Source: Perna viridis | Taxonomy: Eukaryota | Length of the DNA stretch: 64,000 nucleotides | Reading direction: 5' to 3' | Assembly (NCBI GenBank): GCA_037379345.1 | Contig: CM074512.1 | Coordinates: forward strand, 45,694,001-45,758,000 | Part shown: one piece after another, positions 21,301-61,025 of the stretch | How positions within the stretch are numbered: position 1 is the stretch's first letter | Layout: every line of letters starts with the position of its first letter | Made by a program: the position numbers and the translations under genes | The notes under the pieces: generated by a model | Seen by the model: the letters and a program-made list of their open reading frames with translations, nothing else | What the model was told of the DNA's origin: nothing | Database searches by the model: none

Positions 21301-24300
21301 ATTACATGCAGGACAGATGGATGGAGTGCAAACCTGATGTCTCTTTCAGCAAAAGATGCCAGTACAGAGGTCTTATATAAACACAATTTATCATCATTAG
21401 TAACTTTGTCTATGTAACAAGTGAATCATGTATGAAAAATTTAATCTATGGTTAAATGCTTTAATATCAAAAAGCAGAACAAATAGGGCAATAGGTAATT
21501 TAAGCAGATATTACCTTATACAAAGCTTTAATGTCAAGTCTGAGTCATTTTTAGAGGAGCATTTAATATACTCCAAGCAACATGATTGGTATGTTCAAGT
21601 TAACATTATATGTACATACAATGTAAAATAAGACATTTTTCCAAACCACTGTAACAGTTTTTATTAGACAGCCTAATTCATTATAATTTCATCTGTTTAG
21701 CTTAGACACATGAAGAAACAAAGATTATGCTGTGCAAGCTACAAGTAACTAATGAAAGAACAAACCTGCAAGCGTCTAAACGAAATACTTTGCTCAAAAA
21801 GATATTGCCACAAAAGAGGAACACATCCCATGACAGACTGAGCAAATACAAAAAGCATAGGCAAACATGTATATAACCGTTCAGGCTCCAGTGGAACTCC
21901 TAACAGTGCTGGAGGAATTATTGTACAAGCATACATGAAACGTGGCCCATACAGCCAGACTGGACGGGAATATGATGCTACCTTCTTGGAAGACCACACA
22001 TACTTCACCTCAAGCCTGGAAACAAGGTTTAAAGTCATAAACCCCATAATACTATATTTTGATTCTAGATTATATGTTATACCTATAATGTTTATAATAC
22101 ATGACAAGACACTGCTACTAGTGAATTATCTAATAGTGAATGAACTTATATTGTATTATGTTAATGAATTGTTTTTTAAATGCTACATAATCAAACAAAG
22201 GTGTTGTTTATAATTCAGTGTTTAACAGACATGGCAAGCTGAGAAACAGACAGAAAGGTTAAAGGGCTGCTTATCGGTTCATTCACCACTAATTGTGATG
22301 AGAAGAATTTCATGAGATTGACTTCCTGTTGTGAATTAGAGTAACAAATATCATTAGGTCCCTCTGCAAAAGTTACTAATTTCATAGCATAAGCTTCAGT
22401 ATAAGGAAATCTGGCAATGTAATCATATGCCTCAAGAACCTTCCTCAAGGCATGTTTCCAAGGAAGTATACTGATAAATAATTTGTGCTAGAAGTTACAG
22501 TTTTTTGCAGACTGACCCATAATATCTTTATTCTAGATCTCATGATTTTCTTAATATCACATTTTGTTATGAATGAGCTTGATAATCAACCAGAAATGCA
22601 AACATTACATGTTAAGCATACATATACTTTGCTTTGGATGTTAACATATATTGGTTAACCTGCTGGATGTTTATAATAAAAAAAATCAAACTGAAGAATT
22701 AAACTAAAAGAATGAAAATAAATCTAAATTCAAAATTTGTTTAATAAAATACAGATGTACTTGTAAAGGATTAATACAGCAGGTATCTCTCACCCTTTGT
22801 TTTAAGGTAATATTTTACACAAAGCAAGGAAAGCTCAATACTAACTCAATAAGTTAACTAAACCATTTAATAGTTCAGATATTGATGTCGAATGGTTAAG
22901 GATATCATTTTTTGATATTAATATTAATATGCTCATAGGGTCTTAACAAGGAAATTTAAAATGCTATACTAAAAAGCAGTTTTGGGCATAAAATGGGTTG
23001 TGTCCTTATTGTATGACTTATGATGTATCATGATTCTCAAATCGGAAAGGGAAGAACTGGGATTGATTTTACATAAGATGAGGCATAAAATTTTGTAGGT
23101 TTAAATTGGTCTGGAGCTGGCATGTCAGTTAACTTCTAATGTCCTTAGTCTGTACATTTGTGTAATTTTACATTCAGTTTCTTGATTTCTACTGTAACAA
23201 GGGACTCAGACCTTTTTGAACTGATTTTAGGTGTGTTTAATGGTGTAATATTTTTCTACAGTGGCCAGCCTTTAAAGAAGAGGGTTGAGACCATGCCAAG
23301 GTACTTAAATCACACTGCATTTTTTGGGCCTGCCCCAAATCATGAATTTCCAGCCTCTTTATGTCATGTTTCCTTCTCGCCTTTATTTTAAATGTTACTT
23401 AAGTATATAGGGGCAACTCTTCAGCTTTACCTGTGTATAATTATGTTTTGGAGCCTGCTGTAGCATGAGGATTTCCTCATTGTTTACTGAAGACTAATGA
23501 GTGGCCTTGGGTTGACCTTTCCAAAACCAGTGGGGTTGTTGTCTCTTTGACATGTTATATATCATACCATACTAAATGTATCATGCTAAAAGTGTATAAA
23601 GTCCTTATGTGAAGGTCACGCTAGACAGAATTAAATAATGGTGAAGGTCATGATATGCAGAATTTAATAAGTTAGAGTTGATGTGGTAAATAGGCAAATT
23701 TTAATCAGAGAAACATTAAAAAAGCACCTTATGTACATAATTTAAAGAACAACCTATTTGAGCTTGAAAGAAGTTCAAAGAACAGAGACGGATATAAAGA
23801 TAAACACAGAAAATTTTCCTCTACAATGATATAATTCCATGCTTTCTTGTGAACATTAGGTTATGGTAATTCTTTTACTGAAAGCAACTTAAATACCTTA
23901 TAACATAAATTATATCTCCTGCTTCACTAGTTCTCTAGCAAAAAGCAGCTAAAATATCTCAAGAGAAATTTGAAAATGTTGCTCATCTACTCCACATTTT
24001 CAATATAACTGAACTATCTAAAATACAGGTAACTTTTGGTGCTTTACTATTTTGACCATAACATTAAATTTGGTTACAGCAGTAATCCTTCAGAATACCA
24101 TGACATGAATAAGTCCATGTTAAAAAAAGATATATAATGTCTACCCAAAGCACAAATTCGATCTCTATATCACATGAACTAATATAAATCTACTGCAAAC
24201 CTACTCTACCATGGAGGAGTCACCATACTAAGGATGCTACATATACCCGTACATGTTCTACTAGAAACAGATACATATGATTATTCCTTCAAGTTATCAC

Positions 24301-61025: not shown

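What the first reader, a model, noticed from the sequence alone, without database searches (positions are those of the whole stretch)
21766..61025. Array of at least 11 mutually exclusive exons encoding the substrate-pocket helices TM5-TM6 of an ABCC4/MRP4 pump
Seen in the sequence: between the first NBD1 exon (17902) and the window end I find no other ABCC exon type, only 11 homologous exons at 21766, 24623, 27302, 32227, 33774, 44894, 49232, 52138, 56071, 59909 and 60776. Each has an AG|G acceptor (phase 2), a GT donor (phase 0) and no stop. Lengths are 250 nt (8 copies), 247 nt (2) and 253 nt (1), so every indel is a whole codon. All share the skeleton xE...G+....PF.L.....AE.(I/V)(F/Y)........H.....VS(I/L).R(I/L)x but are otherwise very divergent. 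Established knowledge: human ABCC4 has a single 250-nt exon here (KEISKILRSS...VSIRRIQ), and Drosophila MRP uses mutually exclusive exon clusters (2 and 7 variants). Inference: one gene yields 11 or more transporters sharing the ATPase motor and TMD2 but with interchangeable pocket helices, a Dscam-like diversification of xenobiotic efflux. I know of no description of this in an ABCC4 gene or in a mollusc.
Basis: partly seen in the sequence, partly recalled or inferred. Interest (0 to 1): 0.95.

Follow-up and report, generated by a model that had tools for sequence, protein, structure and literature searches.

The report
Mussel pump with fourteen interchangeable exons
One gene for an MRP4-type export pump, in what is likely a mussel, holds 14 intact but very different copies of the exon that builds two helices of the cargo pocket, and it likely splices in one copy at a time to make a family of pumps predicted to carry different cargo.

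Summary
Confirmed and extended. All 11 exons are real (minus strand, stated sizes, AG/GT, no stops); three more, canonical MRP4-like copies lie just beyond the window, making 14 between the same two flanking exons of a single ABCC4 gene, with no other ABCC exon between them. Their profile aligns without gaps to human ABCC4 306-387, which holds pocket residues F324, R362, L363, L367 and F368; only the 3 outside copies keep all five. Paralogue dN/dS is 0.13-0.26. Five divergent copies have one-to-one counterparts (47-71%) in annotated Mytilus isoforms that carry one copy between identical flanks. One assembled contig joins the upstream exon exactly to divergent copy 33774-34020. The same swappable segment appears in annotated isoforms of oysters, scallops, clams, snails, the brachiopod Lingula and the hemichordate Ptychodera. 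Not shown: use of the other copies in this species, the exclusion mechanism (no docking site found) and any change of cargo. Mutually exclusive arrays in MRP genes are known (Drosophila, C. elegans; Yue 2017, recalled, includes molluscs), so this is a new variant of a known kind. The scan reported the same system earlier in an octopus genome (e1-8670478).

The parts
64000..64000 (-). Placeholder at the window end for the parts that lie beyond it (window numbering continued; add 45694000 for G000:C2): three canonical-like 250-nt TM5-TM6 exons V03 65598-65847, V02 67316-67565, V01 68556-68805; common upstream exon E7 76028-76153 (phase-2 donor); common exons 76637-76800, 79422-79511, 79968-80183, 84550-84676, 86154-86264; first coding exon 101907-101980 (ATG at 101980)
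   Evidence: the 3' end of E7 is the loose end of the contig (checked)
60776..61025 (-). V04 divergent exon, 250 nt; pocket positions 324/362/363/367/368 = Y H D K K
   Evidence: 79% counterpart in unnamed fragment P0221
59909..60158 (-). V05 divergent exon, 250 nt; F H G Q L
   Evidence: no counterpart from another species found
56071..56320 (-). V06 divergent exon, 250 nt (NAGNAG alternative 247); F H D R L
   Evidence: no counterpart from another species found
52138..52384 (-). V07 divergent exon, 247 nt; I L Y K M
   Evidence: no clear counterpart found
49232..49481 (-). V08 divergent exon, 250 nt; H R R I F
   Evidence: 51-52% to Mytilus isoforms P0122, P0128; groups with Pinctada P0015
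44894..45146 (-). V09 divergent exon, 253 nt; Y H E K F
   Evidence: 55% to Mytilus isoform P0126
33774..34020 (-). V10 divergent exon, 247 nt; F H N G F; junction from E7 seen
   Evidence: 47% to Mytilus isoform P0131
32227..32476 (-). V11 divergent exon, 250 nt; L H W E Q; recent duplicate of V12
27302..27551 (-). V12 divergent exon, 250 nt; L H W D L
   Evidence: 69% to unnamed fragment P0218
24623..24872 (-). V13 divergent exon, 250 nt; F H E G C; acidic residues at 320, 328, 363, 371, 374, 375
   Evidence: 71% to Mytilus edulis P0001 and P0133
21766..22015 (-). V14 divergent exon, 250 nt; W A Q G C; type shared with oysters, scallops, clams and snails
   Evidence: (59% to P0124)
17789..17902 (-). 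Common downstream exon E9 (phase-0 acceptor), linker into NBD1
1..17504 (-). Remaining common exons: NBD1, TMD2, NBD2; the last exon runs just past the window start

Best explanation
A single ABCC4/MRP4 gene carries 14 intact tandem copies of the exon for helices TM5-TM6, and each mRNA likely splices the common upstream exon to one copy and that copy to the common downstream exon, which would give up to 14 pumps with the same motor and likely different cargo pockets. Shown: the anatomy, the frame logic, purifying selection, one junction to a divergent copy, and one-copy isoform records in relatives. Inferred: all 14 copies are used; skipped and double-inclusion products are removed by nonsense-mediated decay (they all carry premature stops) on top of an unidentified selection step, by analogy a docking/selector RNA pairing or a repressor; exchanging the residues at F324, R362, L363, L367 and F368 changes which organic anions, lipids or xenobiotics are bound. 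History (inferred): an old canonical-plus-divergent array (the V14 type occurs in bivalves and gastropods) was expanded in mussels by one clade of nine copies (V04-V07, V09-V13).
For: One gene, no intervening ABCC exon; single-protein searches of the genome with V14 and V02 found significant matches only in this array. 14 of 14 single-copy paths are open; skipping all, and 91 of 91 double inclusions, give a premature stop. dN/dS 0.13-0.26 in the 6 of 8 paralogue pairs where dS is measurable; a crude neutral simulation keeps only 0.9-7.6% of exons open. A contig of run X18 (974 nt) ends with 30 nt of V10 starting exactly at its AG acceptor, and its loose letters are the end of E7. Of 15 listed of 34 Mytilus cluster members, 10 RefSeq isoforms of three species carry one distinct segment each, with 0 differences in 298 upstream and 300 downstream residues within species. 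They match V08, V09, V10, V13 and V14 at 47-71%, against 10-40% between most paralogues. Same pattern in oysters (2 types), Argopecten (4), Ruditapes (4), Biomphalaria (11), Physella (8), and Haliotis (3), Pomacea (4), Mizuhopecten (4), Lingula and Ptychodera (5). The profile of the 11 aligns without gaps to human ABCC4 306-387, E 2.3e-5. F324, L363, L367, F368 and R362 contact substrates in MRP4 structures (10.1101/2022.12.22.521501, passages; 10.1101/2022.12.12.520055, passages).
Against: Only one junction was seen in this species, in 1 of 4 runs, with 30 letters on the exon side, one short of the tool's 31-letter rule for a bridge, and the run's type is not on record; no variant-to-E9 junction was seen. 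Contigs over V13 and E9 run on into introns, so unspliced RNA or DNA is present. V05, V06 and V07 have no counterpart from another species among my hits. No docking/selector site stood out. The five pocket positions show no clear special selection: 28 of 40 identical in orthologue pairs against 382 of 623 elsewhere, and 51 of 275 against 979 of 4270 among paralogues. The relatives' isoforms are automatic annotations whose read support I could not see. No transport data exist here.
Confidence: 0.82

Rival explanations
1. The copies are spliced alternatively but most divergent isoforms are not cargo-diversified pumps: they are minor, poorly transporting or regulatory forms, and one canonical isoform does most of the export.
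For: The divergent copies lose residues that matter in MRP4 (F368 kept in 3 of 11, R362 in 1 of 11) and several have weaker hydrophobic peaks. The Logan-derived full-length bivalve proteins in my lists (P0005, P0139, P0151-P0153) all carry the canonical type.
Against: Individual copies are conserved across mussel genera and the V14 type across bivalves and gastropods; dN/dS far below 1; both ATPase domains and TMD2 are intact.
Confidence: 0.1
2. Some copies turn the pump into an ion-conducting, CFTR-like form, because they put a basic residue at the position of CFTR R352.
For: TM6 is the outlier helix in the ABCC4-to-CFTR change; R352 and Q353 replace conserved hydrophobic residues and R352 pairs with a D993 that ABCC4 already has (PMC8640958, passages). 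With P355 = P370, R352 corresponds to L367 (inferred; consistent with the match ranges). V04, V06, V07 and V09 have K/R there, V05, V11 and V12 have Q/E/D, and Mytilus P0126 has R. The TM9 aspartate (D842 in MRP4) is in a common exon.
Against: The same copies lose the R347 equivalent (R362 to H or L) and the P355 equivalent; the NBD1-TMD2 linker aligns with MRP4 without a long regulatory insert. A basic residue could simply bind anionic cargo.
Confidence: 0.05
3. The divergent copies are decaying duplicates or fragments of lost paralogous genes and are not used.
For: Low identity to the canonical exon; single divergent exons match no Pfam family (the canonical exon alone does not either) and V06 alone finds no ABCC chain in the PDB. 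Transposon-like remains lie between the copies.
Against: 14 of 14 open with whole-codon indels, intact splice sites, low dN/dS, cross-genus orthologues, one observed junction, no other ABCC exons and no broken copy found.
Confidence: 0.03

Closest known systems
Drosophila melanogaster MRP (CG6214) and C. elegans mrp-1 mutually exclusive exon clusters; metazoan MRP1 arrays of Yue et al. 2017 (RNA Biol 14:1399)
   Same: Tandem homologous exons in an ABCC transporter gene, one used per mRNA. PMC9741552 (passages) says fly mrp has a cluster of eight interchangeable exons and that fly and worm events are unrelated; PMC6071210 (passages) lists MRP1 among clusters run by competing RNA pairings.
   Different: Those genes are described as MRP1 type; this one is a short ABCC4. 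14 copies, most at 10-40% identity. No docking site found here. Whether the fly cluster covers the same helices, and whether Yue's mollusc genes include this one, could not be checked (paper not held).
Vertebrate ABCC4/MRP4
   Same: Best PDB match; collinear over about 1,290 residues for the Mytilus orthologue; V01-V03 keep F324, R362, L363, L367 and F368.
   Different: The three vertebrate and the amphioxus records I examined show one TM5-TM6 type; here 11 of 14 copies change at least three of the five pocket residues.
Dscam1 exon clusters (insects)
   Same: Large array of duplicated exons that diversifies a binding surface (recalled; PMC10790352 passages).
   Different: A single cluster, so no combinatorial multiplication; a transporter pocket, not a cell-surface receptor; no docking/selector pairing shown.
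CFTR (ABCC7)
   Same: Closest relative of ABCC4, with its divergence concentrated in TM6 (PMC8640958); four copies here have a basic residue at the inferred R352 position.
   Different: Those copies lack the R347 and P355 equivalents and there is no regulatory domain; no channel activity shown.

Membership tests
ABCC4/MRP4 | Closest solved structures are MRP4 | tested here: met
   V02 E 1.4e-16; profile of the 11 divergent exons E 2.3e-5, ABCC4 first; Mytilus orthologue 1593 bits against 903 for the next family
ABCC4/MRP4 | Short ABCC layout: no TMD0, two TMDs and two NBDs | tested here: met
   First exon matches residues 1-25 of P0127, which aligns to MRP4 from residue 7; 2 ABC_membrane and 2 ABC_tran stretches in the Mytilus isoforms
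ABCC4/MRP4 | Pocket residues outside this exon (H152, F156, D842, Q845, R946, W995, R998) | tested here: met
   H152, F156, D842, Q845 and R946 read by eye; W995 and R998 by the FQWAVRQ motif against a recalled human context; Q849 is L here
ABCC4/MRP4 | Pocket residues F324, R362, L363, L367, F368 in TM5-TM6 | tested here: not met
   Met by V01-V03 only; 11 of 14 copies differ at three or more of the five. This bears on the isoforms' function, not on the gene's orthology
ABCC4/MRP4 | ATP-driven export of organic anions | not testable with these tools
   No transport assay
Mutually exclusive exon cluster | Tandem homologous exons between the same two constitutive exons | tested here: met
Mutually exclusive exon cluster | Compatible phases; skipping or double inclusion breaks the frame | tested here: met
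   14 of 14 singles open; skip-all and 91 of 91 doubles have premature stops
Mutually exclusive exon cluster | Exactly one copy per mature mRNA, several copies used | tested here: inconclusive
   Holds in annotated isoforms of relatives; in this species one junction only
Mutually exclusive exon cluster | Copies under purifying selection | tested here: met
   dN/dS 0.13-0.26 in 6 of 8 paralogue pairs, 2 saturated; cross-genus orthologues
Dscam/MRP1-type docking-selector cluster | A docking site complementary to a selector beside each exon | tested here: inconclusive
   18 k-mer tests within 400 nt of the exons gave three nominal P of 0.01-0.03 at two unrelated places; the duplex-energy scan had best z -3.1 with a larger opposite tail and covered only 110 windows of the downstream intron. 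No DNA of relatives was available for conservation
CFTR-like channel | Basic residue at the R352 position with the TM9 aspartate | tested here: met
   4 of 14 copies; aspartate in a common exon; the position mapping is inferred
CFTR-like channel | R347 and P355 equivalents and a regulatory domain | tested here: not met
   R362 is H or L and P370 is S, T or L in those copies; no long insert in the linker

The most novel reading that the evidence does not exclude
A splice switch at TM5-TM6 of ABCC4 is an old, widespread invertebrate device (molluscs, a brachiopod and a hemichordate; single in the amphioxus and vertebrate records seen) that lets one gene change the chemistry of its cargo pocket, and in mussels it has produced 14 pockets running from acidic (V13) to basic (V04, V06, V07, V09). 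The basic ones put a K or R where CFTR has R352, so one gene may yield pumps for anions and for cations and possibly an anion-conducting form, a natural replay of the ABCC4-to-CFTR step.
Probability: 0.15. Interest if true: 0.92.

Novelty: new variant of a known kind. Interest (0 to 1): 0.63.

Why it matters
Mussels are filter feeders and standard pollution sentinels, and ABCC pumps are a main part of their defence against foreign chemicals (recalled). If one gene makes 14 pockets, gene-level expression studies and single-isoform assays miss most of its repertoire, and exon choice becomes a candidate response to diet and pollutants. The array is also a ready-made natural library of TM5-TM6 swaps on a constant scaffold, which makes two open questions testable: what sets MRP4 substrate range, and how few TM6 changes separate an ABCC4 pump from a CFTR-like channel.

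Tried and rejected
Docking/selector search: no convincing site. Steric exclusion rejected: the shortest intron between copies is 617 nt. Minor-spliceosome incompatibility unlikely: all sites are GT-AG and no donor shows the recalled U12 consensus. First read lay (19.9 kb, 4 runs) was flooded by repeats; the joint table showed 15 of 112 rows, none a splice joint of this gene. One contig (X5 record 12) stops at the V13 acceptor with 16 unshown letters, a hint only. In the second lay V11 had no cover in 4 of 4 runs and V10 was touched in 1 of 4; contigs drop rare forms, so this is no evidence of silence. No RNA holder listed. A second duplicated exon like the TM3-TM4 pair of Branchiostoma and Mizuhopecten was sought and not found in this gene. 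A broader profile and a mechanical AG-GT scan found no fifteenth or broken copy. IQ-TREE timed out; trees are FastTree on 83-residue segments, 6 near-duplicate or mis-cut rows dropped, deep nodes weak, so common origin against convergence for Lingula and Ptychodera is undecided. V06 alone against the PDB gave only spurious matches, mostly armadillo repeats. No structure prediction was run. Yue 2017 and one further paper sought by a recalled DOI are not held; PMC4691838 and PMC3228551 had no MRP passage.

Full report
Observation. The 11 exons are in the window at the stated places, on the minus strand, each with an AG|G acceptor, a GT donor and an open phase-2 frame; 8 are 250 nt, 2 are 247 nt and 1 is 253 nt. 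They are 10-40% identical to each other except one recent pair at 68%. The window is G000:C2:45694001-45758000. In 200 kb of flanking DNA the profile found three more copies at 65598, 67316 and 68556 in continued window numbering; these are canonical MRP4-like. The array therefore has 14 copies (V01-V14 in transcript order) over about 47 kb.

One gene. tblastn with four full-length ABCC4 proteins over 264 kb gives one collinear gene from an ATG at 101980 to just past the window start, with every other exon present once and nothing but TM5-TM6 copies between the common exons E7 (76028-76153) and E9 (17789-17902). Genome searches with V14 and V02 found significant matches only in this array (only the best candidates are scored). 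The common exons E7 and E9 are 84-92% identical to Mytilus proteins, so the animal is likely a mytilid mussel (inference).

Frame logic and selection. Each copy alone keeps the frame through E9-E11; skipping all copies, and each of the 91 pairs, gives a premature stop. The +1 frame of every copy has 4-11 stops. dN/dS was 0.13-0.26 in 6 of 8 ungapped paralogue pairs, and dS was saturated in the other 2. A crude neutral simulation left 0.9-7.6% of exons open at 32-62% protein identity.

Splicing evidence in this species. No listed run is on record as RNA; runs holding about a quarter of the words of an exon-rich stretch behave like transcriptomes (inference). A 19.9-kb lay was flooded by repeats. 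A 2-kb lay over V10 and V11 gave one informative record in 4 runs: a 974-nt contig of X18 whose last 30 nt begin exactly at the V10 acceptor and whose loose letters are the end of E7, 42 kb away. That is a spliced junction to a divergent copy, though one letter short of the tool's bridging rule. No copy-to-E9 junction and no copy-to-copy junction was seen.

Relatives. A profile search among longer proteins returned a Mytilus edulis gene model holding two divergent copies, one 71% identical to V13. The Mytilus cluster has 34 members, 15 listed; 10 RefSeq isoforms of M. edulis (4), M. galloprovincialis (3) and M. trossulus (3) each carry a different 83-residue segment between flanks identical within the species. 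Five of the window's divergent copies have such counterparts: V08 51-52%, V09 55%, V10 47%, V13 71%, V14 59%. Unnamed fragments match V04 (79%) and V12 (69%); V05-V07 had only near-identical, probably same-species, matches. The same swap is annotated in oysters, scallops, Ruditapes, Dreissena, Biomphalaria (11 segments in 12 records), Physella (8 in 8), Haliotis, Pomacea, and outside molluscs in Lingula and in the hemichordate Ptychodera flava (5 segments in 6 records); the Branchiostoma, Glandiceps and Lineus records examined show one segment per group there. These are automatic annotations; I could not see their read support. On a FastTree of the segments, V04-V07 and V09-V13 form one clade with only Mytilus and unnamed sequences (support 0.96-0.98), V08 groups with Mytilus and Pinctada, and V14 falls in a moderately supported group with oyster, scallop, clam and snail segments. 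Deep nodes are weak.

What the exon builds. The profile of the 11 divergent copies aligns without gaps to human ABCC4 306-387. In MRP4 structures F324, L363, L367 and F368 form the hydrophobic face and R362 one of the anion sites (10.1101/2022.12.22.521501, passages); F368 is described as a strong determinant of substrate preference, though mutation of L363 kept methotrexate resistance (10.1101/2022.12.12.520055, passages). V01-V03 read F-R-L-L-F at these positions; the others read YHDKK, FHGQL, FHDRL, ILYKM, HRRIF, YHEKF, FHNGF, LHWEQ, LHWDL, FHEGC and WAQGC. V13 carries six acidic residues at 320, 328, 363, 371, 374 and 375, all kept in its Mytilus counterpart. The five positions are not clearly more conserved between orthologues (70% against 61%) or more variable between paralogues (19% against 23%) than the rest, so pocket-directed selection is not shown. 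The pocket residues in common exons are mostly MRP4-like.

Mechanism. Most likely one copy is chosen per transcript and frameshifted by-products are cleared by nonsense-mediated decay (inferred). Steric exclusion is ruled out by intron length (617 nt or more). A docking/selector pairing, as cited for fly MRP1 (PMC6071210, passages), was sought and not found, but the test lacked DNA from relatives. The product would be up to 14 pumps with a shared motor and different pockets; no cargo has been measured.

A bolder reading. CFTR differs from ABCC4 most in TM6, where R352 and Q353 replace hydrophobic residues and R352 pairs with an aspartate already present in ABCC4 (PMC8640958, passages). Four copies have K or R at the inferred R352 position and the aspartate is in a common exon. 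The same copies lose the R347 and P355 equivalents, so a channel-like form is possible but unlikely.

Comparison and novelty. Mutually exclusive arrays in MRP genes are known in fly (eight exons in one cluster) and worm (PMC9741552, passages; PMC4234516, passages; PMC10790352, passages). Yue et al. 2017 is cited in this literature; I could not open it and recall that it reports MRP1 exon duplications in several phyla including Mollusca. Seven searches found no paper on an ABCC4 TM5-TM6 array (listings and abstract starts only; subscription journals are mostly not covered). RefSeq already lists such isoforms without comment. This scan noted the same system in an octopus genome (e1-8670478); I checked its claim for other molluscs myself. 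What this window adds: the largest array I saw (14), a mussel-specific expansion, an observed junction, selection estimates, records outside molluscs, and the R352 parallel. Verdict: real, new variant of a known kind, interest 0.63.

Noticed in passing
window 12777-16075: About 3.3 kb of short-period tandem repeat inside an intron of the NBD1 region, giving long spurious ORFs on both strands.
   Followed up: no
window 32100-32227: The V11 donor and the last bases of the exon are repeated in a roughly 49-nt tandem unit, giving extra GTAGGT donors downstream that would be out of frame (sequence).
   Followed up: no
window 36156-37058 and 40427-43388: Transposase-like ORFs in the 10.9-kb intron between V09 and V10: a 300-aa pogo/Tigger-like one, a 561-aa one, and a 134-aa His/Cys-rich nuclease-like ORF on the other strand (labels recalled, not tested).
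   Followed up: no
L004-L005, continued window numbering 92400-95100: Broken reverse-transcriptase-bearing retroelement in intron 1; a related end fragment lies at window 5572-5901 (label recalled).
   Followed up: no
L007, continued window numbering 121789-122673 (minus): Single-exon 295-aa ORF that looks like a rhodopsin-type GPCR, 20 kb upstream of the ABCC4 start (label by eye).
   Followed up: no
proteins P0382, P0393, P0074, P0012, P0373: Further alternative segments in ABCC4 records: a TM3-TM4 pair (residues about 204-263) in three Branchiostoma species and Mizuhopecten, and a short pair at 834-858 in Lineus. Not duplicated in this gene.
   Followed up: partly
donors of V01-V14: V04-V09 have near-consensus GTAAG donors, whereas the canonical V01-V03 and V14 have weaker GTTTG or GTTAG donors; may bear on how choice is balanced.
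   Followed up: no
proteins P0001, P0219, P0226, P0234: Some predicted proteins string several copies together or start inside the array, probably mis-annotations of such arrays.
   Followed up: partly
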